A stretch of 64,000 bases of DNA from contig CAIIXF020000001.1 in assembly GCA_903813345.2 (NCBI GenBank), positions 5,332,001 to 5,396,000 of the forward strand, written 5' to 3'. The notes beneath the pieces are model-generated. The model ran no database searches. It was given only the letters and a program-made list of their open reading frames with translations, and was not told the origin of the DNA. How positions within the stretch are numbered: the stretch's first letter is position 1; each line of letters opens with the position of its first letter. Shown here piece after piece: positions 14,801 through 61,879 of the stretch. The position numbers were made by a program, and so were the translations under genes. This DNA is from Owenia fusiformis (Eukaryota).

Positions 14801-17800
14801 GCCAAAATAAGACAGTGTGTCATGCTTATGAGCATTCACATATCAAATATGAACAAAATCGCTCTATTACTTTTTGAGTTATGGTAAAGAAAACTTAAAA
14901 TAACACACATAAAAATGGTGGGCATTTTGAAAATGGCCATCTTCTATACAAAGTGTCATAAAACAGTGAACCATGCTTATAGCATATAAGGACCACTATT
15001 TTCCAAGATGGCTGCTATGTGTTCCTTAAATATCTGCATATCTAGGTTTATAATGTCCTATATAACCTTTTTTACATTTTAAACATATCGCTATTACAGT
15101 TTTATATATTGTACCTAATTTATCGTAAAATTGGCACTAAGGGGCGGGGTCAAAATATCGATGTTCATATGGAGACGAAAGTACTTTCGCGAGGGGGGGA
15201 GGGGGTTTTTGGGCACTTTCGTTGACCAAAAAAACATCGATAATTCGGATCTGATATACAAAAAATAATTGGACTTACCCACTTTTTCTGGCGCTATGTT
15301 CTGATAAAAAGGCTTGTTTTCAATAGTTCGTGAGCTTTTTTGTGTGATAGGTCCAAAATATCGGTAGATAAAGACGATAATTCGATCATTTTTCAAATAA
15401 ATTCCGTACTTTTCCCTCCTCCTTTTGAAGAGTTCAATGCAGTTAAATTGCGAACGTGTGTTAATTCACCGTAATAATAACCCGGCAAATAGGATACGAT
15501 TATTAATCAATGTTTTTTTGAAGTGACCTAAGCTTTCGTCTAGAGGGGGGGTGGGGGGGTTGTTGTCCAGACGAAATTACTTTCGTCTCCATATGAACAT
15601 TGATATTTTGACCCCGCCCCTAAAATGGTTGCAATTCTTAAAACAATGGCCATTATGAAAATTGGCTTTCAAGCAGAACTTCTAGGCCATATGTATACAA
15701 AAAAAAAAGAACAAAATTGGGCTAATGGTATATGGGTTATCACCTGGATAGACAAACGGATGGATGGAGATGTTCCCTATTTCCCTCCGAACTTTGATGA
15801 GTAATAAAAAACATAAAGACAAACTTTGAAAAATATATTTAAAAAAGATAAGAGAGGGGTACACTTTATTCATTATAATGGTTAAAGATAATGAATTTTT
15901 TCCTTACCTATGAGTTGTAACATTCTCAAATAAATGCTGGTATTGCGGGGCAGCATCTTCTGGTCCATGGGGGGCAGGCATGCTGAGTACCATGGCAACA
16001 GGCCTGAAATATGACAAAATAAATTAAATTTTTTCACTCTATACAGACTATACTATGTATACGCAAACAAGTGGTGCGGATATTATGTGCGCAAGGTGCA
16101 GATATTAACGGTCAGTTTTGAATTTGTGATATTTCATAAACTTAGGCATGTTGGGTACTCAATTATAGTCATCCATTTGTAGAGGATACCTAATAAAAGG
16201 GAAAGTTTGTCTATAGTCATATTCTTCATTCTTTAACGAAGCAGGTAGAGGTAGCACATTTTTGTTCAATTTTTCCCATTTTGTATAACATAATAGGTCA
16301 TCTCGATCATCAATATTTAATGAATGCTGTTTGAGCTGTGAAACAGCTGCATTATAATTTCAAATTATTTGCTTTGGAGAGAGTACTATTGCTTGATGTG
16401 TCGCTATGGAATGAACTACACATCTACTTACACAATTTCCTTTTTATTAGGGAACCTGTTCACATGTATGGATATAACTGAGTACCCAACATGCCTAAGT
16501 TGGCAAAATATAATGAAATCAAATTCAAAAATGACCGATAATATCCGCACCTTGCGCACATGATATCAGCACCGCTTGTTTTCGTATAGCACAGTCTGCA
16601 TGAAGTATTTTTGGAACATATAATCCAGGCATCTTTAGGACCATGGTGATTAGAATTTATCAATAGAACAAAACATACTGCGTTTTGATCAGTAAGGCTC
16701 ATATTTTACTTACTGCATCACATAAAGTTCATACCTGGATACCTAGAATAGGACCATGTATTGATTTCAAAATAAGTGCTCAGATGGTATACATTTATGT
16801 GTTGAGAGGAGAATCCTAAATAAACACAAGTGGCCTGAATAGTAAAAATATAATGATGTACCAAAGGAATTCTAAAATAACAGAGTTCTAAGATTAGTAA
16901 AGAATATACAACTGAGGATTCTGCAAGGGACAACAACCATTGAATGATGGCTTGAAATGGCACAGACTATAGATGATCAAAATACATATAAGACTCATTC
17001 TTTGAAAATAAATCAAAATATCATACAATGGGAAAAGTAACAAGATCAGATAACAAATAAACATAAAATTCTACTTTATAAAAGATAATCATGATTACAT
17101 CAGATATTTTCTTTAAAATATGACACAAATCAAAATTCTGGAATCATGGAAAGCATTCGAGGCCTCATGAATAATTCATGTTGGAATGCTTGTAACATAT
17201 TGGGGAAATCCCAAACTTAGATTAATCAACAGATTTCAGATTAAGTAAAAGATAAATAAAACCCCAATCCATGGTTTATCTCTCAATATGGACTACTTAT
17301 TTCAGTAGAGTTCTACAGTTCCAGCATTTCCATATAATACAGTGTAAACTTCACTGCTTCTCTTTATTCCTTGCTTTTTCCACTTTCCTACTCTGTTCTG
17401 CCTTTAAAAACGTATATTACAACAAGACATGGATATGCAAAATGTCACCACCTACATTTGTTACAGGCATCAAACTCTGACACTAAATGCCAACTGCCGA
17501 ACACCATCCACAAAAAGTTGGAGACAATGATAATTTGTTGCCACTTGTCATGGTGACATACCGTAACTAGAATAGATTGACCACACTAACCTGTTAGGGA
17601 AATACTGCTTTGACTGTTTCAGGAACGTCACACTGTCATTTGCAATAAGATCCGTAAAATAGTCCTTATAATAATTATCAAAATGCTTTACTTTACGTCC
17701 ATTAAAATTGAGTGTGTAGTTATAAAACCTAGTGTTCTTGACAAGGCCGACCCATTCACTCCAGCCTGGTGGGATATATGTTCCATTATATTCATTTAAA

Positions 17801-20800
17801 TATTTTCCAAAGTATCCTGGAAATAAATAAAAAATATATTTATGCTCATTCATATACATCTCCATGTATTTACAAAAATTTAACAAAAACACAAAAGTGT
17901 AAAACATACTATATACTGCAAATTTTCCTCCTGAATGCCAAACACTAATCAGTTGAAAAGACATGATTTTTAGACAAAAATCCAATGTGGCCACCATAAA
18001 ATTTACCCAGACTGCAAAAACTAAGTAGTTTGAGATTTTCATAACATGAATCATTCCTGAAAATTTGATATCTATCTGTCCACTGGTTTGCCAGGAAACA
18101 TGTAGACAAGACTTTACAGAGAATGACGAAAAACTACAAGCATTTCCAGATTTTACTAAGAATCATCCCTGAAATTTGAAATTGATTCCTAAAATGGTTA
18201 ACATAAAAATGCGTAGACAAGACTTTACAGACAAGATTTTAGGACGAAAAATCCAAAATGGCTGCCTTAAAATTTACCCATAATGCCGAAAAACTAGTCA
18301 GTTCTAGACTTTCATATTAAGAATAAATTATTAAAAAAAATTTGAAATCGATTCATCAAATAGCTATCCTGAGAATAAGTAGACTTTTACAGACAAGATT
18401 TTAGAACGGAAAATTCAAAATGGCTAGCTTAAAATCTACCCAGAATGCTGAAAAACTGTTCAGTTCTACATTTTCATACTAAGAATCATCCCTGAAAATT
18501 TGAAATTGATCCCTCAAATGGTTAACCTGAAAACACTTAAACTAGACTATACAGACAAGATTTTAGGACGGAAAATCCAAAATGGCTGTCCTAGATTTTC
18601 ATGAACATCCCTGAAAATTTGAACTGAAAATGTGTAGACAAGTGTTTATAGAGAAGATTTTGGGATGAAAAAATCCAAAATACCTGCAATAAAAAATCAG
18701 ATAGGAGTTTTTGCCGATTTCTTTTTACAAAATTATTGCATAAAACTACTTTTAACAGTGACATGAGCTTTTTTTTATACAGGATACATAATAAATAAAA
18801 CATAAAGCATACATAGTTCATGCAATATATCAGATGTATCTAATTCATCAAGTTGATGAATTAAATATGGGTGATATGGATTTGCACAGGGTTGGTATGA
18901 CTGATGCTTGGTGGTTTGTGGAGCCTCAACTCACATTTATCCTTCAAGTTGATGATAGTGGAATTTTTAAAGCATAGCTCATTCCCAGCAGTGGTATTGC
19001 ATTAAGAACTTGTTCCCACTCTCATTTCTTAATCAAATAAAGAGAAAGGAGGGTCAGGACACTGGGTCTTAATACATGACTAACCGATAGGGTAAACCTT
19101 TAGTTATCCATATTTAGTACCAAGAATGTCACTTTACAATCTATAGACTGATTTTTATCATTTTTTCACTTATCATTGAATCTGACCAGGCAGTGAAAAG
19201 TAAATAAGATAAATTGATTTAGGAAAATAGTAAGGATGTCAAAGCAAGGAAGTATCTCTTAACAACCCTTAGACTTGTTATGATCTAGTGCAAATAAATC
19301 ATTAATAATTACAATTACCGGTTGGTGACTATTACTACTAAAATCAACATATCACAAAATCAAAATCTTTCATCACACAATCCCTACTATCTCTCAATAC
19401 AAAAAATTTGATGTGGCTTTCAAAAAGTCAAAACATTAAACCTTGTTTCCATACTTGAATCTATATAGCTAATTAATGGTTCCCTAAATGACCCAGTCAA
19501 GATATTCAGATTCATCAAATATATTCATGAAAACCACAGATTCTGAGAAGGAAGAATTAAAGATAATAAATATTTTTGACAAATATTGATGCTCTGAGGC
19601 CACTTCCTCTGGTGTGATCAATAATAAATGTACTTGATATAAACCAATGAATAGCTAACAGAGTAAACTGTATTCTCTCTAATATAAGGGGTGCTATAAA
19701 GGATGGACATAGATTTCATTCAGGGTTTCTTCGAAATCTTTGGGCTCTAAATAAAATGTGGAATGGAGCAATTATGACAAACATCAGAAAAAATATAATA
19801 TTGTTATCCAGAGAACTTAAAGGACTTGTCCCCTTGATTTTTTTCATGAGACTTACAAAATCTTATCACGCGGTAGGATCTCTTCGGGACGTATCGAAAC
19901 CACTCCGTCCCGAAAAACCGTTAATTTGAATTTAAAACCTACCCCAGTGTTTGAAAATCAAGGATTGTGAGTCTCACACTTCACCGTTTTTCTTCAAACT
20001 TGTTCCGTACAAAGCTTCACAGAAATACCTTTCAGTCGATACATTGTTTTCGTGTACAAAGTACCTCGTTTTAGCGGCGTTTTGGTCCCCAGCTGTGAGA
20101 TAAAGCAAATTTTCATAACTTTCAACTGTAAGTCAAGTTATCTCGCCAGTCTTTTACCCATTCTCGCCCATAATTTCAGAATGGACTCCCATTACAACCT
20201 TCCATCGCTACGTCTTGATTTTTGGGCATCAAACGCAGCAGTTTCTAAATCATCCACACATCTCTTCAAATTTGACCAATACGCCCCGTCATCTTCCACT
20301 ACGCCCCGCCGAGTCTATCACTATACACGTAGAGTTTCATTCTAAAACAATTTGTCCATCGATGTGTCCGTTTGTAGGTTGCCATTGTCGATTCTAAATA
20401 CCAATCGGATTGTGTTTTAAGATTTACCCATTCTTGTCCATTTTCAATATACCTATAATAGGGTGGTCCAAAATCTCCCTAAAATTTAGATTTCCCGATA
20501 TTGCAATATAAAGATTTTAATTACTGAACAATTGAAAATATTTTTAAGAAACGTTTAAAGTGCCCTATCCTTGAAAAAATGTGAAAATGCGAAAGGATGG
20601 GTGATGTCAATTATATTATTTTCAGCATAACGTTAGAAACATGTATCATTTTATATGTTTCACGTTTCATAATGTAATCCAATGGAATCATACAGAAGAA
20701 AGGTTGACACACAACAGTAAAAATCTTTCAATTCAATTTTCAATTCAATTTATTATTCAATTCTAGTTTTCATACAATATTAATTTACAAGTGATATGAA

Positions 20801-23800
20801 AAGGACACCCCGAGGGGTGTATGGATTCCATGTTTTGAAAAAATAAAATGTGTTATACATAAAGCATGTCATGTTAGAACAGTTATTGTAATGTACAAAT
20901 TTACAAAGCATACATTTTTAATTATCTTGATGTAACATAGTGGAAGTATGGTTCAAACTAACTAATAATGACTTAACAAATTGGACTTAAACTTTCGTTG
21001 AAACATTTTTATATGAATTGAGTTTCTCAAATCAGTAGATAAAGAGTTATAAATTGATGGGCCACTTGTCCCAATTGATTTCCTTCCATATTCTGTTCTA
21101 AATGGTTGAACAATCAAATCATTTTTTGATTTTGTGTCATGTGAGTGAATTGTTGATCTTAATGAGAAAAGACGGTTGAATTTTTTAAAAGGGAAATCAG
21201 GCGATTCAGAAAGTGTTTTTTGTACAAAGCTAGCTGTTTGATGGGAATGTATATCAAATACATTTAAAAATTTTAGCTTCTGAAATAGTGGACCTGAAGC
21301 GGCAAAGCTATCAGAATACGTAATGACTCTTAAGAATTTCTTTTGCAAAATATATAATTTCTGAATGAGTGTTTTTATGGCATTTCCCCATAAGATATTT
21401 CCATAGCTTAAGTAAGAATAAATCATTGAATAATAAATTGTAGTCATGGCATTCAAGCTCAGTCGATGTCTAGTCCTGTATACTATACCAATCAAATTAG
21501 AGATTTTTGTACATATAGCATTAATGTGAGGAGACCAGTGTAACTTTGAATCAATGATAACACCAAGGAAATTAATTTCTTTCACCTCTTCAATTGGTTG
21601 ATTGTCAATCTTAAGGATAATATTCTTGTCGTTCAGATCTCTTTTATTGCTAAATATCATAAACTTGGTTTTTTCAACATTAAGAGTTAGTTTATTTGCC
21701 TTCATCCAATTTGAGACATTTTGTAATTCCTCATTCATTTCAATGACTAGATTTTCAATATTTTTGTCAGTAAGCGCAATATTTGTGTCGTCAGCATATA
21801 AAACAAAGGATAGTTTATTTGAGACGAGATATATGTCATTAATGAATATTATAAATAAGAGGGGGCCTATTACCGACCCTTGTGGTACTCCATATTCAAC
21901 TGTATTTTCAATTGATCTATATTTCACATCAGTCTCTGTAAATTGGTCAAGTGAAACATTCTTCTTTGTAAATTCAGTGATGATTCTTCTATTTTCAAGG
22001 ATAACTTGTGAACCAAGAAAGAGCTACTCCACGAATGCCATAGAATTCAAGTTTTTGTAATAATATTTTATGATCAACGGTGTCAAAGGCTTTAGTTAAA
22101 TCAATATAAATACCAAGACTAGTTTTCCCTGTATCTAAAGACTTTCTAATATTTTCAATGAAATTTAAAAGGGCCATGTATGTTGAATGTTTTTTCCTAA
22201 AGCCATATTGGTGTAAGTATAAAATTTCATATTTTTCAAGAAATACGGTAACCTTATCATGAACAATTTTTTCCAACATTTTAGAAAATACACTTAAGAT
22301 AGAAATGGGTCTGTAGTTATTAAAAATTTCTTTTAAACCTTTTTTAAATATAGGAATGACTCTAGCAATTTTCAATGCATCAGGAAATGTTCCAGTAGAG
22401 ATTGACAGGTTAAAGATCTGTGTAAGTGGGGCTGATAAAGATTCTTTTAGTAATTTGACAACTGAGGGCTTAATATCGTCTATTGAAGCAGCAGAAGGTT
22501 TCAAAGATTTAAGTTGATTCTTAACATCAGTTTCTGTTACAGGAAATAAAAAGAGTGATTTATCATTTGAATTAATTTTTCTTAAATTTACCATTGGATC
22601 AGCATTGCTTTGAATCTTATTTGCAAGTTTATTGCCAATAGAGCTAAAGAAATTATTAAAGTTTTCAGCTATTTCAGCGCCATCTGTAGTTTGTCGATTA
22701 TTAAGGTTAAATGTATTATTTATTTTTGATTGACCAGACTTTTTCTTTAAGATGGTGTTAATTAAATTCCAGGATTTTTTTATGTTGCCTTTATTTGCTT
22801 CAAATTTATTTTTGAAATAAGCTTTTTCAGCATTTCGAATTACATGAGTTAATTTATTTTTATACCTTTTATACATGGCTTTGTTTTCCAGTGTTGGATT
22901 TTTTTTGTATTTAATATAAAGCTTATTTTTGTATCTAGCTGATATAATAATTCCAAGAGTAATGCAGGGTTTTTCATTATCATTGAAAGTGCTGACTATT
23001 TTTGATTTTACTGGTAGACACCTATTATAAGTTTCAGAAAACGTTTCAATAAAAGAATTATAAGCATTATTTACACACTGAGATTGATAAATAGCATGCC
23101 AATTAATCTTTGAGATCTCTGATTGGAGTCTTGTACATGTTTCATCATTAATTAGTCTGTATTGGATCTTTAGTTTTTTAACTTTGGGCTTCTCATGATT
23201 ATTAACAGCATAAATGGGAAAATGATCTGAAATATCATACAAAATGATACCAGATTGAGCAACATTATGAGCATTGGTAAAGATGTTATCAATTAAAGTA
23301 GCACAGTTTCTGGTTATTCTTGAGGGCCTATAAATCAACGGCATATAATTGTTTGTGTATAAATTACACAAGAAATCATTTGTTTGATCATGGTCATTTG
23401 CTTTAAAAAGATCGACATTAAAATCGCCAAGGATATATGAAATTTTGTTCTCAGAAGCCACTTTTTCTAAGAATACAATAATATTTTTTCCTTCATCTTG
23501 TTTTATTTCAATGGACACTGATTCAGATTTATCAGAATTAAGTTTGAGATCTGACCTTTCCTCAAATTTGTACTGTTTTGCAATATGTAGGCAAACTCCC
23601 CCACCTCTAGACTGTTTTCTCGAATTAAATACAGTATTATATCCATTTAGTGAAAAAAGCCTCTCATTGTGTTGAGTTAACCATGTTTCAGACATGGCTA
23701 TCACAGAGAAGGAATTTTTACTCAAAGAGTTTAGCATTTCAAATTTCCAATTGTTTTTTGGTAAGCTTCTCATATTCATGTGGAGTAGTGAAAATGAATC

Positions 23801-26800
23801 ACATTTTATTGTTGAATTTAATGTATCAATATTCACATAATTACACTCTTTAGCGATGTTATGCATATCTGTTTGTACGTTGTCAATGTGATCTTCATTT
23901 GCAATGTGTTTGTCAAAATCAAGTGGATTGAAAAGTAAATTATCAAAAAAGTCAAGTCCATGTGTTATGTCCATAAATTCAACATTTGAACACTCATGAA
24001 ATGGAAGATCTTTTAGAGAATTAGCCATTGTCAAGTTCAAATGGTAAAATTTGTTGAAAAGCCATTTTTTCCTTTGAAATGCTTAATAAAATACTTCCAG
24101 CCACGAAACACAATGCTTTGATTGTCATCAATATTGTAACGGATTCTAAATTCATTTCAGAAATAGAAAGTAACAAATAAAAATAAAAATAAAAGGGTGC
24201 AAGTGATTTGCTTGCAAACATATATACAAGATGTAACACTATTTGGAGCATCTCTTACTCAAATGCTACAGATATAAGGATAAGCATGTAGTACTGTGTA
24301 GTTGTGAGAGATCATAAGTAAATGCATATACAGAAATATGTATGGAGGAAAGAAGACAAAAAATATATTCCATTATATTATATATATAATATTATTCCAT
24401 GGAATAATCCATGAAATGATATTCAAGACTCAAAGTGCAACTTATTTGCAAGGGCAATCCAGTTAACCTTGATGCTTGGACTGAGAAAATGGTATAAAAT
24501 AATGTGAAAACCCATTTGTAAGGGCAGTCGAGTGTAATCAAATTCATTATCAAATACAAAAAACTTACATCACAACACAATATTTTGTCATAAAAAGCAT
24601 AAAAGCTCAAATTGCAAGGGCAATCCAGTCTCACCAGTCAAGCAATTATTATAAGAAAATTATATATCGGGATGACTGGAACTATGGACCGAAGTTCAAA
24701 GAGAAATAAAATGGAATTAAATGTTAGTAACCCCCCCCCCCCCCTTCCCGTTTACATAGAGAAAATGAGCAGTAAAACAAATTCAATATGCATGAACAAA
24801 ATGCAGGTTCTTCAAGCTTTTGATTGCAAGGGGGAAATAGTTAAATAATCCTGTTGTGAAAGATTGTTTTCAAGTAAAGTTTGTAAGTGGTATAATATAA
24901 AAGTTTTGGAGAGGTTCCAATTTTTTCCCTTGCAGTAAAAACCTTAAAGAAGTTTCGATATATGCAAACCTCACTGTTTAAAGAAAAATATATAAATTAC
25001 TGTTTAATCACACCTGGATGAAATAGATTGTTTGCAGTTTCAATTATTCCACAAGAACACAAATGTGTACAAAATGTCCCCACCAAGTGGCGATCCCGTG
25101 AAATGGTTATCCTGAAAATGAGTAGACAAGACTTTACCAACACAATTTGAGGACGGAAAATCCAAAGTGGCCACCTTAAAATTTACCCAGAATGCCAAAA
25201 ATTTAGTCAGTTCTAGATTTGCATACTAAGAACCACCCCTGAAAATTTGAAATTGATCCGTCACACAGTTAACCAGAAAACATGTAAACAAGACTTTACA
25301 GACAAGATTTCAGGATGGAAAATCCAAAATGGCTGCCTTGACATTTACCCAGAATGTCAAAAAACTAATCTGTTTGTAGATTTTCATACTAAGAATCATC
25401 CCTGAAAATATGAAATTGATCTACCAAACGGTTCACCTGAAAACGGGTAGACAAGACTTTACAGACAAGATTTTAGGACAGAAAATCCAAAATGGCTGCC
25501 TTAACATTTACGCAGAATGCAAAAAAAGTAATCAGGTGTAGATTTTCATACAAAGAATCATCCCTGAAAATTTGAAATTGATCTATCAAACCGTTCTCCT
25601 AAAAACGTGTAGACAAGACTTTACAGGCAAGATTTTAAGATGGAAAATCCAAAATGGCTGCCTTGACATTTACCCAGAATGCAAAAAAACTAATCAGTTC
25701 TAGATTTTCATACTAAGAATCATTCCTGAAAATTTGAAATTGATCTACGAAACGGTTCACCTGAAAACGAGTAGACAAGACTTTACAGACAAGATTTTAG
25801 GACGGAAAATCCAAAATGGCTGCCTTGACATTTACCCAGAATGCCAAAAAACTATTGAGATCTAGATTTTTATACTAAGAATCATCCCTGAAAATTTGAA
25901 ATTGATCCATCAAACGGTTCACCTGAAAACGCGCAGACAAGACTTCACAGACAAGATTTTAGGACCGAAAAATCCAAAATGGCCGACAATAAAAAAGTTC
26001 TTATGAGTTTTTGCTGATTTCTTTTTACAAAATTATCACATATAACTACTGTTAACAATAAAGTAGGCTTTTACAGCAAAGTACATCTGAAATTATTTAT
26101 AAAGCTACTAAATAGTTAAAGTATGAAAACTCAAAAACACCATTCAATATGATACAAAGTATTATCGCGCGCTAACTTTTCTTAAGACATTCAAAATGGC
26201 TGACATGACTGAGCTAGCAGGTCCAAAACCTAATCAGATCTAGAATGAAGTGAGCTGAACAAGATGTTAAAGTTTTAAAAGCAACTGTGAAGCAGTTTTT
26301 CTTAAAGTTTGCAGACAAGGATTTCAGCATTTGACTTCAAAATGGCCGACAGGAAGTAGGTATCGAGTTAATTTTTTTTCATCCACATCTGTATGCACTC
26401 ATAAGTTATCCCTGAAAATTTGAGGGTGATATCTGTAGCGGTTTTGGAGAAAACTGCCGGACGTACGGACAGACAGACGGACAGACAGACGGACAGACAG
26501 ACGCGCCTAGGCCGACAATATGGCCCCACACTATGTGGTGGGGACATAATAAACTGTAAAAGTGGTCATAGAGTATTTACAGTTAAGGTTCATTTGTTAC
26601 AGATTGGAGGATTAAGATGGCTATGTATCTCCTATTTTGTCTTTGATAAGTTTGGAGACGAGCTTCCACTTTTCGGGATCATATCGGTCATTGTCCCATC
26701 GAGATATTATGATCATTGTGTCAGAAAGATTCAGTTCGACGATTGTATTCCTAATAGTGCGTCCCATGCCAGAGTCTCCATCATCCTGAAAGTCATAGTA

Positions 26801-29800
26801 TTTCCTGGCTCCATTTTGGATAACAAATGCGAAGCTGTTATTTGTAGCTTTGGCAACATAAGGATCGGAGCATGTTTTAAGGAGTGCAGGTTTCACGTCA
26901 GTAAGCGTTTTCACTTTCGCCAGATGTACTTGATACGATCCTCCAGTGCCTGATATCACTGGGCCATTTTTAAGATTGATATCGAGTGCGTCCTGAACTG
27001 TGTCTGAGTTAGATATGGGAGTTTTAAGGGGATATACCAATCTCCCATTCACCGTCATTTTTTCCTTAGAGATGTTACATCTTACATTATCAGACCAAGT
27101 CAGTAGATGTTTATATACCAATTAGTGTTGTATGATGATGCAATCTTTATATGAATCTAGAAACGTTTTTGTGCCAATATTGCTCAATTTTGATAACATC
27201 TCCGTTATTTTGAAATCAAGCGTGGCAAAGTTTCCCGATGGATTTAGCTAAAAAAAAGTGGTGCCTGTAGGGTTATTGAAAATCATACATGATGAAGAAA
27301 AAATACATATTCCTGAAATACAACAGTTTAATTTTGAGTTATAAACCATTTATGAAAACGGCATATTTGTCAAAATTACCAAAAGTTCAAGTGAGACGCG
27401 TGGCAAAATTTCCCAGGGGTCTAGAGTGGAAATATTTGTACCAAGAGTCAATTTGTAACTAGAATCTATCAGATGGCAGAATTTTGGAAAATTTTGCAGA
27501 TTTGGACAACACTAACCTATAACTTTGTTGAACCTGAAGAAACGTATCAACTTTTTGTTAAATAAAGATAGCAAATTCAGCTGTCTACTGTACCTAACTT
27601 GTACTTTTTGCTAGTACTCAGATTGATGGATATTCTGTCGTATGACATGCGACAAACACCGGTGTAAAAGCGTAGGTGGTCCTATCAAATTATGGTCCTA
27701 GTCTCTATTGATTTATATGGTGACCTGATTACAATTATTTTCCTTCTTATTTATACACAATCAGGGCCAGAAAGGGCCGTTGGGAAAGGGGACCATAATC
27801 CCCAGGGGACCATAATTTCTTTCACACCGGCTTTGTTAGTACTTTGCCTTGGATGTCATACAGTACATTTACACTGTGGCATGATGATGAACTTAGAAAA
27901 TATGTATAGTCATGACAAAATGTTCTTTGTGATATAATATTGTATAGTATCATTCTGATACGTATTACATGTTTATGTTTAGTGCATAAAATTCATAGCC
28001 AGATCAATAATTCGGAGAGAATACGCTGGACGATAGAATATTAAAAACTATAAAAACATTCTTCATAGAATTAAGCAAATAGTGTTATTATCATTTAAGT
28101 AGTAACTGCATATGTTTAAAACCACTCTGTTTAAATACAGGTAAATAAATAAATATGAGAGAGCAATAGTCATCACAATAGAAAAAACGGAGCGAAAATA
28201 TTGAAAGATGACCGAGACAATTGAAAAAAAGGACAAAGTACTGGATTTGACCTAGTTCTTGACCTTTGGCCTAGATAAAAATTTGACACCATTTCTTACC
28301 AACTAGATACTGTACCTTAATTGACCATATAATTGTCTTGAATAGATACTTTGTACAGTAGTTGTTGAGAAAACGTGACCAGTAAAAGAACAAGAATAAG
28401 AATAAACAAAAGAGGCAAAAACAAAGATGTTCCCCTTCACCAATGCAATGCAATCATTTTTCACAATGTTTAATGCATTACTTAAGGAATGACCAAACTT
28501 GCTGTTATTTTCGCCATTCCCAGGTGTGATGTCACACAATACATGCATATAGATTCCTTGAAGCAGATTCAATACAGCACGGTCTTGCCTACAGTATATG
28601 GAGAAATAATGAACGTTCATTATTGGATATGCTGCATTCTGATTGGTTTAGAAATTCAAATAGAGCACGGTCATGTTTGAATATTCTTTATTTTGATATC
28701 AATGAGTTATTGAAATGAAAACTGAACTCTCTTAAGATGAGTGTTGACAATGTTATTTCCCCGTTTAGAAAAACAATTGGTTTCAACTCATTTTGGTCAT
28801 CCAAATTCAGTATCTTTTAAGTCACTATATCCACTATATTCAACTTCTAAAATAATCAACGGAACCATTCGGAATACTTTTATAAACATAGTTTGGCCAA
28901 ATGCATAGGTGGGGGACAAAGTGAGTTTTAAAGTATTCACCTCCACATAGCCTTGCCCAAGTCGGTCTCTTTTACTTATTTTGATTTCTATTATTAATAA
29001 TTCAAGATCAGATAAGTAAAAAGATATCGACTTAGGCAAGGCTAACCTCCACAGGGTAATGAGAGTCTCTTGATGTGGAGTTGTAGTGTGGTGGTCTCAT
29101 TAATGGAGACCTTGGCCCCTTCCCTCTGGAGGTCCTTTATTTTCTGTACCGTTATCCCAAAATGGTGGGACCTATACTTAAATCCCCCGACTTCCTCCCT
29201 GAGATATCGTTTATGCACTTTAAGGTCCTGTGTGAGGTACCGTCTCATTTCATGTTCTATATAACACGTTCGATTTGATTATCCCCGGTGTTGCAGTAGT
29301 AGCACTTAAACATATGCGGTATCATAAGATGCCGTTCAAAAAAAGAAATAACACATATACATTTCTTTGATTGATTATCAATAGCTAAACATAACCGTTT
29401 CGGTTACAAGTGTGTTCAAATGCGTGACCGTTGTCGTATTATCATCAATTCGTTTATGTAACCAAAGCGAGGGATTAAATGGGCGTTCCTGTCATCCAAC
29501 AAACTATTTCGATTAAAATCACTTGGTTGTCCAGAAAGATATTTTGCTTATCCATATTTCGGCCGAAAAGATCTGGATGATTCGTGCTGTATCTCGAGAT
29601 ATCAAGGAAAACGAAAATTCTTACCGATTTCTTCAGCCGGAACAGCAGCCATCTTGTTACCAAAACGATTCGTTTTGGTAACCAGCGTAATCGAGCGGAT
29701 CACCAGTGAGTATAGCGTTTTTTCTTTTACATGTTACTTTTTGTACATCATTGATTGATCCGCTCTAATCTGCCCTCGGCCGATAATTTATAAATTATTT

Positions 29801-32800
29801 ATGTTGAACATTAGCAAAACAGGATTCCAGATTATATTGTGTTTCAAACCAGACACTTGGTTTCCTCACAAAATCAAATACAGGACAATAACATATAATT
29901 AAAGTTAAAAAGCAACATCTTCACAAACATTTAAATTATCAATTTCATGCAATCAGTTATAGTTATACTCCGTATGTATGCTAAACTTAAGACTGGTGTT
30001 AAGAATCGACCAAGGCAAACCTATGTAAAATTACACATCGATGAACAAAATGTTTTAGAATACAACTCCACGTTTGTAGTCATAGACTCGGCGGGGCGTA
30101 GTGGAAGGTGACGGGACGTATTAGTCAAATTTTAAGAGATGTGTGGATGATTTAGAAACTGCTGCGTTTGATGCCCAAAAATCAAAACGTAGCGATGGAA
30201 GGTTGTAATGGGAGTCCATTCTGAAATTATGAGCGAGAATGGGTAAAAGACTGGCGAGATAACTTGACTTACAGTTGAAAGTTATGAAAATTTGCTTTAT
30301 CTCGCAGCTGGGGACCAAAACGTCGCTAAAACGAGGTACTTTGTACACGAAAACAATGTATCGACTGAAAGGTATTTCTGTGAAGCTTTGTACGGAACAA
30401 GTTTGAAGAAAAATGGTGAAGTGTGAGACTCACAATCCTTGATTTTCAAACACTGGGTTAGGTTTTAAATTCAAATTAACGGTTTTTCGGGACGGAGTGG
30501 TTTCGATACGTCCCGAAGAGATCCTACCGCGTGCTTATGAAAACAGAAAAATGTAAGGATGCTGTGGAAAGTCTACCTAGGGTACTATAAGCATTGCTTT
30601 GAATTTTATTACTTTGTTTTGTTTCGTTTTCAATAGAAGTCTCCAGCACTAAATTACATCACTGAAAATACTTTAGCAGCAGGATCCTGTGAAAAATTGA
30701 CAATGCATATTATTCTTCTGGAATATTCCAAAGTACAATGTCAAAAATGTTTACTCACTTCTCTCAACCAGATTTCTTGATTACAATTTGCAACTGGGTT
30801 GTTGGTAATTTTTACATTGTGGTTCTGACTGGCATGGCCTTATTTATTACAATTATGATTTCTCCAAAAACTATTTGAAAGGTTATCAGCGATTAGCATA
30901 TTAACTGAGTCAACAGCTCCCATATGATATCTTCATTCAACTAAGACTAGAAGCTGAATTTTGTAAAGCGAAGATGAGATAATCTGTGGAACATGTTCTC
31001 AATCACGTTTGATGATTTAGGCTAATGAAGTGCACACATGGGTGTCTGAAGTACATTGATGGAAAAATTATTCCTATAACAAATGGGATTGAAGTTTAAG
31101 ACTTGAATATCCTCTTCATATACCCATGCTAAGTCATCCAATTGAAAACAAAATTTTAAGATGTGTCCGAATGTTTCAGTAACCCTTTAACAACTAGATA
31201 ACAGCAACACAAAGGCATAGCAAATCCCATGTACAACTAGGAATCATGTCAAAGAATGGCCACTTTAGATTTACTGCAAAAGGATAATGTGCCATTCTTG
31301 CACCATTTACATAGTACTATAAAATATCAACAAAATCATTCCTTTGGAAGTTATCTAGAGAAACTGTGCCATGCTTCAACAAAATTGCTCTTCTCAGTGA
31401 TCTCCCTCGGATTTGTTTTCAGATGGGTGCAAATTTTTTTCGGTTGCTTCACTTACAGTATTAAAAAATTTGAAATAATTTTAGCCACTCGCTTTGCTTG
31501 TGAGATTTCAATCTTACAGATGTATGCCGCTCGTTTCAATAATGATACTTATTTCTTCATAATATTCTCCTCCTAATACTCACATCAAGCTACTTTTTTT
31601 ATCAACTTAGCTGATTTTACTAATTTAATGTAAATTGGAATAGGAGGGGGATGATAACGATAACTGTTAACACAACTAGAAAAACAGCATGGAGTAGCAA
31701 ATCCCACCGAACAAAATATGTTTTGATAAATAGTGGCCATATAAAATTTGAGCAAAATCCATCTACTGGTATTTGAGTTGTCAAAGATTATGTTTTTTTT
31801 TGAAACATGGTGGCCCTTTTAAAATTCAGCTACAATCTTTCTTCTTGAGCAGTGCGCCTATGGCCGTAGGCATCAGCATATAAAATCTAATCCAAATCCG
31901 TCAACTGGTACTTGAATTACATTTTTAATGAAAAATGGCAGAGATATCCAGAAATTTTCTCGAGCAGAGCTCTCTAGGCATCAATATATAAAATCTAAGG
32001 TAAATCCGTCTAGTGGTATTTGAGTTATTGAAGATTACGAAAATGAAAAATGGCAGCCATTTTGAAATTCAACTGACACCTTTGAAATTTCTTCTGAAGA
32101 AGATCTTCTTTGTCCCTAGACATCAGCATATAAAATTGGAACTGAATTCATCCACTGGTATTTGATTTATCAATGATTATATTTTTTAAAAATTCAGTGG
32201 CCATCTTGAAAATGTCTTCTTGAGCAAAACTTCTTTGTCTCTAGGCATCAGCATATAGAATTTGAACCAAATCCGTCAACTGGTATTTGAGTTATCAAAG
32301 ATTACATTCTTTTACGAAAAATGGTGGCCATTTAAAAAAAATTAACTGCCATCTTGAAAATCCCTTCTTGAGCAGAGCTCCTATGTCTCTAGGCATCAGC
32401 ATATAAAATTTGAACCAAATCCGTCTACTGGTATTTGAGTTATCAAAGATTACATTATTTACGAAAAATGGTAGCCATTTTAAATTGAGCGGCCATATTG
32501 AAAATTCATTCTTGAGCAGAGTTCCTACACCCACAAGGCATAAGCCTATAAAATTGAATCAAATTAGTCAACTGGTGTTTGAGTTATTCCCCGGACAGAC
32601 TCACAAATGGACGGACGGATGAACAGACAAACTGACGAACAGACAGACGGAATGACCAAAAACAACCAGTGAAAATCGCCTGTTGCCTGCTGCAAATGAA
32701 ATCCCTACATAAAGAAAATGTTTGTTTTAAGTAAATGTTATTAGTTATGAAGGACCTCCACAATTCCAGAAAATTAACTAGAGAAGGAGTGTTTATATCC

Positions 32801-33530
32801 CCAAGATTTGGGGGGGGGGGTCAAAAAAAGGTCCCACTCACCTGTTCTATATCCAGCTTTACTTAAATATGTGGCAAAGTTTCTGGTTTCATGTGTCTGC
32901 TGCCAGGAAATACTGGAGCAGTTATCATTGTTTGTATATGTGTTGTGATTATGTACATACATTCCTGTGAGGAAAGAACTTCTAGATGGACAACACATTG
33001 GAGTTGTTACAAATGCATTCTCAAAATGAGCCCCTTCTTTTTCTAAAAGTCTCAGTGTCTTAGGCATGAACTGCATTGAACCTGGAATAGAAGACCAAAA
33101 GTTTCAAGGTTGATTTGGGAAATCTATATTACACACAGGTGATGGTCCACATTTCTTGTTTTGTCTTAGTTACTTCAAGCAGTGTATATAACTAGTAATT
33201 CATACTCAATTTTGTTCAGTAATAGGTTGATAGAAAAATCTTAATATGAAAAGCTTGATCAAAAACTCAATTCTCATGGTAAGCCTACATTTTCTTACCT
33301 AACTCAGAATCTTGATCATCTGTCATGACAATCACTATATTAGGCTTGTCACTACGTTTATGTTGTTTTTTATGATGCCGTTGATTTGGTATTCTTGCCC
33401 GAGCTTCATCTCTCTGTCTCTGTTCCCGGGCTCTGTGTTTATATGAGTGTCTTTGTCCTTCAGAGTATTGCCAATAGATGGCTCCAGAGATCACTGCCAC
33501 CAAAATGGCAGACACCATAGAGAATTGCAT
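2599..33530 (-). CDS. Sulf1: Extracellular heparan-sulfate 6-O-endosulfatase (Sulf1/Sulf2 type), multi-exon, 3'-incomplete in window
   Basis: Signal peptide, [17 protein letters not shown] formylglycine motif, [20 protein letters not shown], basic hydrophilic domain, C-terminal [15 protein letters not shown]. 14 core exons join in phase via GT-AG (2548 nt, about 849 aa). Confidence 0.97.
2918..3568 (+). mobile_element. HINE/pearl-like element with ~120-145 bp tandem cores
   Basis: About 4 copies of the AAAATGGCCAC...CTCTAGAACTTGATA unit, (CACGAT)-like microsatellite, terminal hairpin. Confidence 0.65.
4960..5022 (-). CDS. Sulf1: Possible small Sulf cassette exon (63 nt, phase 2-2)
   Basis: Pyrimidine tract, weak aag| acceptor, CAG|GTTTTA donor; open frame [21 protein letters not shown]. 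Confidence 0.35.
5264..5377 (-). CDS. Sulf1: Probable Sulf cassette exon (114 nt, phase 2-2)
   Basis: tag|G...AG|GTATAA; open in the Sulf frame: [39 protein letters not shown]. Confidence 0.7.
5585..7387 (+). pseudogene. Intronless, decayed DEG/ENaC (FaNaC-like) sodium channel pseudogene, antisense in a Sulf intron
   Basis: Ordered motifs: [14 protein letters not shown] (HG), [62 protein letters not shown]...[14 protein letters not shown]...[14 protein letters not shown] (TM2); several stops and frameshifts; split by repeats at ~6070-6630. Confidence 0.88.
6167..6617. mobile_element. Two adjacent foldback/MITE-like elements
   Basis: IR 6167-6203 vs 6465-6500, internal hairpin 6246-6291, second imperfect palindrome ~6503-6617. 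Confidence 0.65.
7946..8157 (-). CDS. Sulf1: Sulf coding exon 13
   Basis: DVRKKIFK...S/T/P-rich segment...PECNCED; acag| and |GTAAG. Confidence 0.88.
8179..8985 (+). mobile_element. HINE/pearl-like element with tandem GACCTTGAGAAGGTC cores
   Basis: AACTAGAAAACAGC start shared with the copy at 31674; about 3 tandem units at 8570-8900. Confidence 0.55.
9350..9576 (-). CDS. Sulf1: Sulf coding exon 12
   Basis: [13 protein letters not shown]...[23 protein letters not shown], resembling the conserved Sulf hydrophilic-domain block. Confidence 0.92.
9855..10082 (-). CDS. Sulf1: Sulf coding exon 11 (basic, convertase-type sites)
   Basis: [23 protein letters not shown]...RIKRSL...RKKRD...EEGEES; phase-consistent. 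Confidence 0.88.
10442..10622 (-). CDS. Sulf1: Sulf coding exon 10
   Basis: [17 protein letters not shown]...CNCGRK...QHVK; phase-consistent. Confidence 0.92.
11004..11136 (-). CDS. Sulf1: Sulf coding exon 9 (start of hydrophilic domain)
   Basis: KITNKQ...[22 protein letters not shown]; phase-consistent AG/GT. Confidence 0.92.
11412..11471 (-). CDS. Sulf1: Sulf coding exon 8
   Basis: [20 protein letters not shown]; ttttcag| and |GTGAGT. Confidence 0.94.
11755..12590 (-). mobile_element. 3' fragment of a LINE (RTEX-like)
   Basis: KLRTY..FK..EEYL...[18 protein letters not shown]...[11 protein letters not shown]-terminal domain; AATAAA and (ATACAA)n-like tail at ~11755-11797. Confidence 0.85.
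12623..12736 (-). CDS. Sulf1: Sulf coding exon 7
   Basis: [35 protein letters not shown]; tttcag| and |GTAAGT. Confidence 0.95.
13799..13974 (-). CDS. Sulf1: Sulf coding exon 6
   Basis: [53 protein letters not shown]; |GTAAGT donor. Confidence 0.96.
14309..14459 (-). CDS. Sulf1: Sulf coding exon 5
   Basis: [16 protein letters not shown]...[20 protein letters not shown] flanks. Confidence 0.96.
14600..15810 (+). mobile_element. HINE-like element related to 852-1944, interrupted by a MITE
   Basis: Same core units and 3' end (GGATGGATGG...CCCTATTTCCCTCCGAACTTTG). Confidence 0.6.
15141..15620. mobile_element. PIF/Harbinger-type MITE
   Basis: ~50-bp TIR GGGGCGGGGTCAAAATATC..., TAA TSD on both sides. 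Confidence 0.9.
15908..16003 (-). CDS. Sulf1: Sulf coding exon 4
   Basis: [33 protein letters not shown]; tttcag| and |GTAAG. Confidence 0.95.
16044..16598. mobile_element. Tc1/mariner-type MITE
   Basis: ~135-bp imperfect TIRs CAGACT...AGTCTG, flanked by TA / CA. Confidence 0.8.
17591..17816 (-). CDS. Sulf1: Sulf coding exon 3
   Basis: [33 protein letters not shown]...[15 protein letters not shown] flanks. Confidence 0.96.
17955..18790 (+). repeat. ~162-bp tandem repeat array (HINE core, same family as 25051-26550)
   Basis: About 4-5 copies of AAAATCCAAAATGGCTGCCTT...GAATCATCCCTGAAAATTTGAAATTG. Confidence 0.8.
20962..24040 (-). pseudogene. LINE ORF2 (APE endonuclease + reverse transcriptase), one frameshift
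   Basis: SETWL, GGGV, GDFN, IDNIF, SDHFP; YRPIS, QYGFR, DLTKAFD, GVPQGS, YADD. A +1 frameshift near 22000 joins the 681-aa and 321-aa ORFs; the usual YRPP segment of the endonuclease appears deleted in frame. Confidence 0.93.
25051..26550 (+). mobile_element. Complete HINE/pearl-type element
   Basis: Subterminal IR ATGTCCCCACCA (25074) / TGGTGGGGACAT (26536), ~5.5 tandem 162-bp cores, (GACA/GACG)n, 3' stem-loop. Confidence 0.85.
26621..27121 (-). CDS. 5'-truncated ORF with IMPACT/YigZ (UPF0029)-like domain; probable LINE ORF1 C-terminus
   Basis: [10 protein letters not shown]...DV...ATNNSFAF...DDGDSGMG...IIISRW follows the IMPACT pattern; preceded by EKMTVNGRL, like the ORF1 DKLxINGK motif; frame begins at TTG right after a stop. 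Confidence 0.7.
   Translation of the reverse strand: MVYKHLLTWSDNVRCNISKEKMTVNGRLVYPLKTPISNSDTVQDALDINLKNGPVISGTGGSYQVHLAKVKTLTDVKPALLKTCSDPYVAKATNNSFAFVIQNGARKYYDFQDDGDSGMGRTIRNTIVELNLSDTMIIISRWDNDRYDPEKWKLVSKLIKDKIGDT
27659..27830. mobile_element. Small MITE
   Basis: CCGGTGTAAAAG / CTTTCACACCGG ends with inverted ATTATGGTCC / GGACCATAAT subterminal motifs. Confidence 0.6.
29048..29326 (-). pseudogene. Degenerate zinc-finger-like first exon inside the TIR element
   Basis: [31 protein letters not shown]... with a 2-nt frameshift; ends at GAG|GTTAG; downstream of a CpG-rich promoter-like patch. Confidence 0.4.
31674..32665 (+). mobile_element. HINE/pearl-like element with tandem cores
   Basis: AACTAGAAAAACAGC start, ~7 ATCCGTCxACTGGTATTTGAGTT units, (GGAC/AGAC)n at the 3' end. 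Confidence 0.75.
32842..33081 (-). CDS. Sulf1: Sulf coding exon 2 (catalytic CCPSR motif)
   Basis: GSMQFMPKT...[15 protein letters not shown]...GYRTG; ccag| acceptor, |GTGAG donor; 240 nt. Confidence 0.97.
33299..33530 (-). CDS. Sulf1: Sulf coding exon 1 (signal peptide to DDQDSELG)
   Basis: [16 protein letters not shown]...[19 protein letters not shown]; donor G|GTAAG at 33298; upstream acceptor ttccag gives exon start 33595. Confidence 0.95.
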
Positions 33531-60300: not shown

Positions 60301-61145
60301 GTGTATAGAATCAATTGAGTAGATTACATCCTCTAGACGGTATTTTTTGAAATTTAGTTGGAAATACTCAGACTGTAAACAGCCTATGTTAAATGTTGTT
60401 GTTCAAACATATCTTTTTAATGTAAGTTATAATTCAAAGTGACTGATGTAGTAAATTAATTTGCATATTTAAATTAATTTTAAGTTCCACTACATGTAGC
60501 TTTATCTCTTAGACTAGACAATATGCTGTGTTACTTTTTATGTCATTTAATTGTACCTTACTACCTAATTGAATTTTCATAATGTTTATTTTATTGAAGT
60601 AATGCTTCCTCTAATGAATTGATAATTTTGTGCAATACAATTCACCGCAATAACCACACGACAGAAAATAAGGATAACAAACTGAGTTCACACTCAGTCT
60701 GTTGGATACTAATCAATAATGAGGTAAGAAATATGTGCATAGCTGGTGCAGATATTTTTGGACTTGTGAAATATAACATGTGGTTCTATTGCATACACAC
60801 CGATAACGTGGGTATTTCCATGAACATGTGCCTTTAACACTAATTTGTAAATTCTGCAAACTGATTGCCTATTTCAATGGTAGGAGCAACTTATAACCTT
60901 TATATTGTTTCTCAAGGAGGGATTTTGCGTGCTTCGGGGGGTATGGATGCAATTTTCCAGGGGAGAGGGGTATGGATGCAAATTTCTGGGGGGGGGGGGG
61001 GTATGGATGCAAATTTCCGGGGGGGGGGGGGGGTGGTATGGATGCAATTTTCTGGGGGGGGGGGTAGCAAGAAAAAAATTCTGGGGGGGGGGTATCTCAG
61101 CCTGTGCATCCATACCCCCCGTACATTTTTTAAATGGAATGGCCC
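57379..61145. mobile_element. Harbinger-like TIR pair with poly-G subterminal arrays, 3.8 kb apart
   Basis: GGGCCATTCCATTTAAAAAATGTACG at 57379 and its reverse complement ending at 61145; ATT on both flanks; G-run arrays 57406-57620 and 60935-61093. Confidence 0.65.
59301..59756. mobile_element. hAT MITE with 8-bp TSD
   Basis: TIR TAGTGTTGTCGCGAT / ATCGCGACAACACTA; ATATACAT on both flanks; ATCGAT subterminal motifs. Confidence 0.92.
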
Positions 61146-61879
61146 ATTTTTAGAAATGTTAGACTAGATATGTTTGGACCACAGGAACCTGGACAATTCA
61201 GCAGGGTTCATTAATTGATATTTCTATTGAACTTAAAAGTAAATATATAAAACATACCATTCTAATATATGTATTATGATCACAGGTAGGGATCAGATCG
61301 CACCTTCGCGTCCATACCGCTGTTTTCCGTACAGGTTGCCGCTCCTTCGAGTAGATAATCGACAGAATTTACGAATACAAAGGCTCTATCTTTTAATTCA
61401 GTCAACCTAGCCCTTTCTTCATAGTATATTCAGTTAGAGGAATGTGTTTCATATCATCTACGTTTTTAAGGGTACTTACATATGTCTAGGTTGCTCGTAG
61501 GACAGCACACAAATTACCCCCTGACATCCACCATTTCAGTTAAGTACGTTTTTCTTGGATTTGGGGTCATTTTTGTTCCTTCACACCTCGTCCAATGTAA
61601 AATTTGATTGATTTTACTGTTTAAATGGCTAAATGCATAAGAATATATACCTGTTATACCAGCATTGTTTCGACTTTACAGTTTCTGTCAAATTCCGCCA
61701 TTTTCGTTTTTGGATTACGCACCTTAATCGTATTTTGGTTTCAGTTTGGTAGAACTCTCCTTTTATTCAGATTAATGTTAAATTGGCAAAGTTCAGATCA
61801 CAGAGAACTATTTACACGTGATTTGTGTCGTTTTTAGAGTTCTTTCAAAAACGATACAAACGATACAAATCATAGTCTA

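What the first reader, a model, noticed from the sequence alone, without database searches (positions are those of the whole stretch)
19862..30538. Large CAC...GTG element with 5-bp TSD and unusually long TIRs (Transib/RAG-like)
Seen: termini CACGCGGTAGG...CCTACCGCGTG, exact CTTAT duplication (3- and 4-bp readings do not match), and ~540-bp TIRs with roughly 10 mismatches by eye over the outer ~450 bp. Known: CAC ends with a 5-bp TSD characterise Transib and ProtoRAG/RAG-like transposons, whose TIRs are normally tens of bp; Chapaev and CACTA give 3-4 bp TSDs. Inference: a recent non-autonomous member of a long-TIR lineage of this group, with an autonomous partner possibly elsewhere in the genome. 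No transposase is recognisable here.
Basis: partly seen in the sequence, partly recalled or inferred. Interest (0 to 1): 0.75.

Follow-up and report, generated by a model that had tools for sequence, protein, structure and literature searches.

The report
Gene-less transposon with long inverted ends
This is one copy of a young, abundant family of gene-less cut-and-paste transposons in an invertebrate genome, swollen by other mobile elements that landed inside it; its ends only partly resemble those of the RAG/Transib group, and the enzyme that moves it was not found.

Summary
Observation confirmed: 540-bp inverted arms, CAC...GTG ends, exact CTTAT duplication. The family has 241 exact 30-bp ends, about 120 copies. 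Of 78 paired copies, 77 have a 5-bp and one a 6-bp duplication; median length is 2.3 kb. The 10.7 kb size comes from nested insertions: a LINE, a tandem-array repeat and half of a second CAC/5-bp element. No copy examined holds a transposase. 'Recent, non-autonomous' holds. 'Transib/RAG-like' is unproven: targets are AT-rich (24% GC) and cut at pyrimidine|purine steps, the ends lack RSS-like heptamer/nonamer marks, and the RAG1-like and Chapaev transposons checked here have other ends and 1-bp or 4-bp duplications. 75 of 78 copies keep at least 400 bp of both arms, and a 9-bp motif sits at the tip and again about 415-440 bp inside; a sister family has the same layout. Enzyme odds: Transib-side CMCT 0.42, hAT5 0.3, undescribed 0.2. 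Earlier scan notes describe sister families in this genome.

The parts
19862..19866 (+). 5-bp target-site duplication, left copy (CTTAT)
19867..20406 (+). 5' terminal inverted arm, about 540 bp
   Evidence: 3 differences from the family 5' consensus in 500 bp
19885..19912 (.). tip pair of the 9-bp motif TACGYCCCG in inverted orientation (arm positions 19-27 and 38-46, the second with one mismatch); candidate transposase-binding sites (inference)
20280..20308 (+). inner pair of the same motif, direct, 20 bp apart (arm positions 414-422 and 434-442); mirrored on the 3' arm at 30092-30120
   Evidence: two copies at arm positions 380-470 in 135 of 156 arms
20407..20728 (+). family-specific inner left sequence, non-coding
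   Evidence: shared with other copies and contiguous with 27079 in them
20729..27078 (-). nested insertion seen only in this copy: an APE+RT LINE with a TTGAA-type 3' tail at 20729 and no target duplication, itself interrupted
   Evidence: Pfam RVT_1 and Exo_endo_phos
20962..24082 (-). LINE ORF2 (endonuclease plus reverse transcriptase) in two frames that overlap near 21995-22023
25051..26552 (.). independent repeat with a 162-bp tandem array (25100-25983), a GACA microsatellite and an end hairpin; 'Helentron-associated type' is a recalled label
26621..27078 (-). truncated ORF with an IMPACT/UPF0029 domain, probably the end of the LINE's ORF1 (inference)
   Evidence: Pfam PF01205 E=1.5e-7; Atlas Impact_N clusters, scores 0.82-0.84, a lead only
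27079..28181 (+). family inner sequence, a patchwork that includes small independent repeats (27511-27651, 27655-27831)
28182..29708 (-). one end of a second CAC/5-bp family ('C', CACTGGTG ends, TIR 29425-29708). Its target AGTAT is whole at 29709-29713 and cut to AG on the left. The same piece is in three other copies with different TSDs
29709..29990 (+). family-specific inner right sequence, non-coding
29991..30533 (-). 3' terminal inverted arm, 543 bp
   Evidence: 4 differences from the family 3' consensus in 450 bp
30534..30538 (+). 5-bp target-site duplication, right copy (CTTAT)
32842..33081 (-). host sulfatase (Sulf-like, name recalled) exon upstream of the intron that holds the element
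   Evidence: Pfam Sulfatase E=1.9e-16; joins in frame to the next exon
17591..17816 (-). next host sulfatase exon; the GT-AG intron 17817-32841 is 15.0 kb, of which the element is 10.7 kb

Best explanation
A non-autonomous cut-and-paste DNA transposon ('family A', about 120 copies, typically 0.9-4 kb) sitting in an intron of a sulfatase gene. SHOWN: it spreads with both ends intact and leaves a 5-bp duplication at AT-rich sites, preferring a pyrimidine|purine step at each cut (y|RTNAY|r). It has no coding capacity, its middle is dispensable, and it can carry cargo (four copies share the nested family-C half). This layer is about 0.95 likely. INFERRED: a DDE transposase supplied in trans binds a repeated 9-bp motif (TACGYCCCG) present as an inverted pair at the tip and a direct pair about 415-440 bp inside each end. 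It cuts at the CAC and joins the ends to target DNA with a 5-bp stagger. The long arms persist because the inner sites are needed in cis. The most likely enzyme class is the CMCT clade on its Transib side (CAC ends plus 5 bp), but an atypical member with AT-rich targets and long two-part ends. The confidence given is for the whole statement including this enzyme class.
For: TSD 5 bp in 77 of 78 copies, GC 24.5% against 31.4% in flanks (p=0.003), Y|R step at 93 of 152 cut sites against 24% background. 241 ends. Median divergence 0.67% in 60 left arms. No transposase: a profile of 79 RAG1-like transposases and 5 Chapaev queries found nothing in 65 A copies while both positive controls hit; the profile hit no A locus among 207 loci; 0 of 116 ORFs from two A copies and six copies of sister families passed a Pfam cut-off. 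75 of 78 copies keep at least 400 bp of both arms; the amplified 891-, 901- and 1053-bp subfamilies keep 435, 423 and 446 bp on the shorter arm, just past the first inner motif. The motif is the top repeated 9-mer, reached by 2 and 1 of 60 shuffles; sister family B (ends CACGGGTAGTATCT) has CCCG motifs at 20, 51 and 411-489 and none between. CA..TG ends with 2-5 bp TSDs mark CMCT, and 5 bp marks Transib (PMC12730594, PMC1131882 passages). Ten further CAC-ended, 5-bp families occur here, three with 6/7 heptamer matches.
Against: No autonomous partner was found, so the enzyme class rests on end features alone, which a 2026 preprint shows to be labile in Transib. Described Transib and RAGL targets are GC-rich. 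The A heptamer matches 4/7, positions 34-35 are CC not AA, and the best nonamer match is 6/9 (p=0.067). Occasional 6-bp duplications occur (A 1 of 78, B 2 of 8, C 1 of 7). Repeated subterminal motifs far from the tip are documented for hAT elements (bioRxiv 2022.09.16.508221 passages). The motif enrichment is modest (60 shuffles). Arm retention could also come from how deletions form (gap repair from both ends), my sample was chosen for intact termini, and two single copies have arms of only 44 and 223 bp.
Confidence: 0.42

Rival explanations
1. Same non-autonomous element, but moved by a hAT5-type transposase (5-bp TSD hAT lineage near Blackjack) whose BED-type domain reads the repeated subterminal motif.
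For: hAT5 (5 bp) and hAT6 (6 bp) exist in one animal hAT lineage (PMC12730594 passage). hATs favour AT-rich targets (PMC1131882 passage) and need subterminal repeats beyond the TIR. 6-bp exceptions occur here. The genome has 139 hAT dimerisation-domain hits. Other 5-bp elements here have ends that look hAT-like by recall: a CAG-ended one at window 42554-44615 and an imperfect CAC/CAA-ended one.
Against: None of 135 hAT hits checked (of 139) lies inside a known A or B interval; the nearest are 5.7-6.2 kb outside. Invariant CAC across eleven families is the CMCT/Transib mark. The terminal sequence of hAT5 was not found in any paper I could read, so this rival is untested at the ends.
Confidence: 0.3
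2. The partner is a transposase lineage not yet classified, with its own signature: CAC ends, AT-rich 5-(6-)bp duplication, and two-part ends about 450 bp long.
For: The signature matches no described group in full. The genome already holds an odd RAG1-like family with CATATCG ends and an apparent 1-bp duplication in 4 of 5 copies, so CMCT diversity here goes beyond the textbook. At least eleven families share CAC plus 5 bp.
Against: No protein in hand. Unclassified 5-bp-TSD non-autonomous families are catalogued in Repbase for oysters and fish (recalled, not checked), so this may only reflect that I could not consult Repbase.
Confidence: 0.2
3. A deletion derivative of a true RAGL (RAG1L plus RAG2L, ProtoRAG-type) transposon.
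For: CAC ends and 5-bp TSD as in protostome RAGL (PMC7204232 passages).
Against: No match to the protostome TIR consensus beyond CAC, and positions 8-10 are TAG not AAA. RAGL targets are GC-rich. The Pfam RAG1 search of the genome gave 0 hits, though it had no positive control and scores even the local RAG1-like protein at only E=0.002. No RAG-like remnant in any copy. RAG2L itself was not searched.
Confidence: 0.03
4. A Chapaev derivative, moved by one of the many intact DUF1280 transposases of this genome.
For: The genome has many long Chapaev-type ORFs (89 matches, the best 18 in frames of 497-688 aa) and their ends start with CAC.
Against: The two examined are 3.8 kb with CACA ends, 13-16-bp TIRs and 4-bp duplications (TACA, TGGA). 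None of 60 hit places checked lies within 10 kb of an A end or marker. Only 2 of about 10 Chapaev families had their ends read.
Confidence: 0.05

Closest known systems
Non-autonomous Transib families (Transib-N of insects and sea urchin, PMC1131882, passages and section 9; Kodama/Hopper, bioRxiv 10.64898/2026.08.26.747230, passages)
   Same: CAC...GTG ends, near-invariant 5-bp TSD, no coding capacity, amplified internal-deletion forms.
   Different: AT-rich y|RTNAY|r targets instead of GC-rich; heptamer 4/7 and no AA at positions 34-35; arms of about 540 bp with inner motif pairs instead of 37-38-bp RSS-like termini; no linked transposase.
RAGL/ProtoRAG transposons of protostomes and deuterostomes (PMC7204232, PMC10629977, PMC4411706, passages)
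   Same: CAC start and 5-bp TSD.
   Different: No RAG1L/RAG2L remnant, no AAA at positions 8-10, AT-rich targets (PflRAGL-A TSDs are 82.5% GC), long arms.
hAT5 group (cited in PMC12730594, passage; the Repbase Reports original was not available)
   Same: 5-bp TSD; AT-rich targets and repeated subterminal motifs as described for hATs in general.
   Different: hAT5 end sequences could not be compared; no hAT gene lies inside an A or B interval.
Chapaev (DUF1280 transposase, Chapa domain), read in this genome at L190 and L191
   Same: CAC ends; active in the same genome.
   Different: 4-bp TSD, short TIRs, no sequence shared with family A.

Membership tests
Transib | Transib-type DDE transposase (RAG1-core-like) on the autonomous element | tested here: inconclusive
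   No transposase in any copy; no autonomous copy found; 0 of 17 RAG1-like hit places checked lie within 20 kb of A markers.
Transib | 5-bp target-site duplication | tested here: met
   77 of 78
Transib | 5'-CAC termini | tested here: met
Transib | RSS-like terminus: CACAATG-like heptamer, about 23-bp spacer, A-rich nonamer with AA at positions 34-35 | tested here: not met
   Heptamer 4/7, positions 34-35 CC, best nonamer 6/9 at spacer 23, shuffle p=0.067; definition from PMC1131882 section 9.
Transib | preference for GC-rich targets | tested here: not met
   TSD GC 24.5% (380 bases) against 31.4% in flanks; 15-bp site 33%.
RAGL/ProtoRAG | convergent RAG1L and RAG2L genes between the TIRs | tested here: not met
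   No RAG1-like remnant in copies. RAG2L was not searched separately; no host-type ORF found inside copies.
RAGL/ProtoRAG | protostome TIR consensus with AAA at positions 8-10 | tested here: not met
   positions 8-10 are TAG; definition from PMC7204232 passage
Chapaev / Chapaev3 | 4-bp or 3-bp TSD | tested here: not met
   0 of 39 at 3 or 4 bp; local Chapaev controls give 4 bp
CMCT clade (broad) | CA..TG termini and 2-5-bp TSD | tested here: met
   definition from PMC12730594 passage
CMCT clade (broad) | C(2)C and H(3-4)H motifs in the transposase | not testable with these tools
   no linked protein was found
hAT5 | 5-bp TSD | tested here: met
hAT5 | hAT transposase with dimerisation domain on the autonomous element | tested here: inconclusive
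   0 of 135 checked hits inside known A/B intervals; intervals are incomplete
hAT5 | terminal sequence shared with described hAT5 families | not testable with these tools
   no hAT5 terminus found in readable papers

The most novel reading that the evidence does not exclude
Family A and its sister B are the visible, non-autonomous face of an undescribed RAG1/Transib-related transposase lineage that makes 5-bp duplications at AT-rich pyrimidine|purine sites and needs two-part ends (motif pairs at the tip and about 410-490 bp inside). It would have radiated into more than ten CAC/5-bp families in this genome. That would separate the 5-bp stagger from the GC-rich target preference and the short RSS-like signal thought to go with it in the RAG lineage.
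Probability: 0.25. Interest if true: 0.62.

Novelty: new variant of a known kind. Interest (0 to 1): 0.33.

Why it matters
As it stands it is an ordinary kind of object: a gene-less DNA transposon in an intron. Its value is as a clean footprint, with 78 insertion sites, natural deletion series and a sister family, of a recently active transposase that has not been identified. If that enzyme is on the Transib/RAG side, it would be a RAG relative with AT-rich targeting and long two-part ends, useful for asking how target bending and end recognition evolved in that clade; Transib ORFs look rare in molluscs (one element in PMC10294476, passage). If it is hAT5, the CAC/5-bp rule often used to call such repeats 'RAG-like' is misleading in these genomes.

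Tried and rejected
Search for the autonomous partner, all negative. The longest paired copies (6.9, 10.2, 5.2 and 5.0 kb) owe their length to unrelated insertions. Unpaired ends turned out truncated, interrupted or at an assembly gap. Inner-motif searches listed 84 and 64 places; those whose partner motif was missing or distant were fetched. Not all 241 ends were listed or read: 78 pairs plus about 17 unpaired loci. A 12-bp end pattern added only 30 ends and had a high control count (179), so it was uninformative.

Pfam RAG1 search of the genome: 0 hits with no positive control. The RAG1-like 726-aa family (L083) was rejected as partner because of different ends and a 1-bp duplication in 4 of 5 copies. 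Two Chapaev families were rejected (4 bp). Six further RAG1-like or Chapaev-like loci showed no TIR or A-type end within 10-26 kb fetched. Family B copies of 3.9 kb and 9.0 kb (central 5 kb only) are non-coding patchworks; other long B copies were not read inside. For the position check I entered 135 of 139 hAT hits, 60 of 89 Chapaev-type and 17 of 27 RAG1-like places.

The 124-aa frame inside the arm has no Pfam match. A 138-aa inner frame has no usable Atlas hit. The terminus is absent from metagenome contigs (0) and has no look-alike in earlier scan windows. A search for longer relatives of the IMPACT ORF found none, which is weak evidence.

Empty allele: laying four runs on 18750-19990 was inconclusive; flank depth was 0-3 in the raw-read run and none of the 24 listed contig pieces bridges the junction. 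No RNA holder was listed. A profile search of the whole genome and of metagenome contigs could not be run, so remote Transib-type genes in the genome remain unsearched.
Full report
1. The observation. The element runs from 19867 to 30533. Its ends read CACGCGGTAGG...CCTACCGCGTG and CTTAT lies on both sides; no other length from 2 to 11 gives a duplication. The arms align over 540/543 bases with 10 mismatches in the outer 450. The window lies in a 500-Mb eukaryotic assembly; earlier scan notes call the host an annelid, which I did not check. The element sits in a 15.0-kb GT-AG intron (17817-32841) between two consecutive, in-frame exons of a sulfatase gene on the minus strand.

2. It is one copy of a young family. 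The 30-bp terminus occurs 241 times exactly, the reversed control 0 times, so there are about 120 copies. Of 78 copies read with both ends, 77 have an exact 5-bp duplication and one has 6 bp; lengths run from 305 to 10,667 bp, median 2,330. Left arms are a median 0.67% from the family consensus (60 arms). Of the 18 differences between this copy's two arms, 13 are fixed 5'/3' differences of the family, so they do not date the insertion. In raw reads of a run from another study, depth over the tip was 600-890 against 0-3 on the flank, so the family is abundant there too. The G at arm position 11, which marks this copy's subfamily (16 ends in the assembly), was in 1 of 354 reads there. This hints that the subfamily differs among individuals, but that run also matched the flank poorly, and the empty allele itself was not shown.

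3. Why this copy is large. In other copies 20728 joins directly to 27079. The 6.35 kb between is a minus-strand LINE: endonuclease and reverse transcriptase in two frames (Pfam), a TTGAA-type tail and no target duplication. A separate 1.5-kb repeat with a 162-bp tandem array lies at 25051-26552, and a truncated IMPACT-domain ORF at the 5' end. The 1.53 kb at 28182-29708 is one end of another family, C: 4.1-6.1-kb elements with CACTGGTG ends, about 290-bp TIRs and 5-bp duplications in 6 of 7 copies. Its target AGTAT is whole on the right and cut on the left. Three other A copies with different TSDs carry the same piece, so family A moved on with this cargo. The rest of the interior is non-coding and holds further small repeats.

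4. No transposase and no partner. A profile from 79 RAG1-like transposases and five Chapaev queries found nothing in 65 A copies while both positive controls hit. The profile hit no A locus among 207 loci. None of 116 ORFs of 52 aa or more from two A copies and six sister-family copies passed a Pfam cut-off. The longest copies owe their length to unrelated insertions. The genome does hold CMCT-type transposases, but those whose ends I read do not fit. A 726-aa RAG1-like family has CATATCG ends and a 1-bp duplication in 4 of 5 copies. Two intact Chapaev elements are 3.8 kb with CACA ends and 4-bp duplications. No hAT hit (135 of 139 entered), Chapaev-type place (60 of 89) or RAG1-like place (17 of 27) lies inside a known A or B interval. 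The search was not exhaustive: not all ends were listed, and a profile search of the whole genome could not be run.

5. Target site. The duplications are AT-rich: 24.5% GC against 31.4% in flanks (76 sites, p=0.003). The symmetric consensus is y|RTNAY|r, and 93 of 152 cut sites fall at a pyrimidine|purine step against 24% background. Transib and RAG targets are described as GC-rich and hAT targets as AT-rich (PMC1131882, passages); PflRAGL-A duplications are 82.5% GC (PMC10629977, passages).

6. End architecture. The tip has CAC but matches the heptamer at only 4 of 7. It lacks the AA at positions 34-35 of Transib termini (PMC1131882 section 9) and the AAA at 8-10 of protostome RAGL (PMC7204232, passages). 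The best nonamer match is 6/9 at spacer 23 (p=0.067); of 11 termini tested this way only C (p=0.017) and one B variant (p=0.042) scored lower, uncorrected. The middle of the family is freely deleted, yet 75 of 78 copies keep at least 400 bp of both arms. One of the three exceptions (L091) is an alignment artefact of a 55-bp deletion; two are single copies with 44 and 223 bp. The multi-copy 891-, 901- and 1053-bp forms keep 435, 423 and 446 bp on the shorter arm. A 9-bp motif, TACGYCCCG, lies at arm positions 19 (inverted), 38, 414 and 434. It is the top repeated 9-mer, reached by 2 and 1 of 60 shuffles, and 135 of 156 arms hold both inner copies. The 901-bp form stops one base past the first inner copy. 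Family B (198 matches to its 14-bp end; one inserted base away from A's first 15; 5 bp in 6 of 8 and 6 bp in 2 of 8) shares almost no other sequence. It has CCCG-core motifs at 20 and 51 and again at 411-489, 22 bp apart, with none between. I infer two-part ends with tip and inner binding sites. This is a hypothesis: gap repair from both ends could also spare long arms, and my sample was selected for intact termini.

7. Mechanism. Shown: trans-mobilised cut-and-paste behaviour with a 5-bp stagger, AT-rich Y|R targeting, a dispensable middle and cargo transport. Inferred: binding at the motif pairs and the class of enzyme. CA..TG ends with 2-5-bp duplications define the CMCT clade, in which 5 bp points to Transib (PMC12730594, passages), and eleven families here share CAC plus 5 bp. 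I give a Transib-side CMCT enzyme 0.42. hAT5 also makes 5-bp duplications, hATs use distant subterminal repeats (bioRxiv 10.1101/2022.09.16.508221, passages), and 5-bp elements with hAT-looking ends (a recalled pattern) occur here: 0.3. An unclassified lineage: 0.2. Chapaev 0.05, true RAGL 0.03. A 2026 preprint warns that TSD and TIR should not override transposase homology in Transib (10.64898/2026.08.26.747230, passages), which cuts both ways.

8. Relation to what is known. It works like a Transib-N or Ds-type non-autonomous element. It should not be filed as Transib or RAGL: two Transib marks and two RAGL marks were tested and not met, and the defining protein is missing. Eight literature searches returned no description of such a family in annelids. 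I also saw passages of PMC4411706, PMC8355894, PMC5753468, PMC10294476 and bioRxiv 10.1101/2021.09.26.461848; PMC6004678 gave no passage, and the supplement of PMC12730594 gave only tree labels. Earlier notes of this scan describe sister CAC/5-bp families elsewhere in this genome; I used them as leads and checked their ends.

9. Verdict. Real, recent, non-autonomous and inflated by nested elements. The RAG/Transib label is plausible but unproven and partly contradicted. Interest 0.33. The most novel reading, an undescribed RAG1/Transib-related lineage with AT-rich targeting and long two-part ends, has probability 0.25 and would deserve about 0.62.

Noticed in passing
window 26621-27078 (-), with 20729-25050: Truncated ORF with an IMPACT/UPF0029 domain (E=1.5e-7) at the 5' end of the nested LINE, about 1 kb from ORF2 once the 25051-26552 repeat is set aside; probably the LINE's ORF1. 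Noted separately by the scan (e1-7142939).
   Followed up: partly
L083:1760-7125; also L108, L110, L112, L114: The RAG1-like 726-aa transposon family has CATATCG ends and an apparent 1-bp target duplication in 4 of 5 copies (the fifth has a changed first base), unlike the 2-5 bp described for CMCT elements.
   Followed up: partly
L190:1257-5104; L191:1353-5169: Two intact 3.8-kb Chapaev elements (Chapa-type 5' exon, 660-aa core, 4-bp TSD). The genome holds many more such ORFs, several in identical-scoring copies.
   Followed up: partly
window 42554-44615: 2.06-kb element with CAGGCC ends, 175-bp TIRs and a 5-bp AAACA duplication; a possible hAT5-type element.
   Followed up: partly
window about 57379-61146: 3.8-kb element with GGGCCATTCC ends, an apparent 3-bp ATT duplication and G-rich 30-bp arrays at both ends; Harbinger-like by recall.
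   Followed up: no
L143-L146, L187-L189 (family C); L086, L088 (D); L087 (E); L085:843-1382; L135:4566-5588; L101:1998-2743; L039:367-1937; L156:973-3307: At least ten further CAC-ended families with 5-bp duplications; several are nested in A or B copies, and C has a tip palindrome at positions 27-53 like A.
   Followed up: partly
   Followed up: partly
window 61889-63907 (+) and 11921-12379 (-): Further LINE reverse-transcriptase ORFs; the first is 69% identical in DNA to part of the nested LINE.
   Followed up: no
window 17959-18757, 25051-26552, 31724-32656: Several repeats with 125-162-bp tandem arrays and GACA microsatellites populate the sulfatase introns.
   Followed up: no
L095:51-192 of the arm matches L095:6468-6609; also L162, L172: Older relatives (75-83% identical) of arm positions about 21-234 occur outside family A copies, suggesting an earlier related family.
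   Followed up: no
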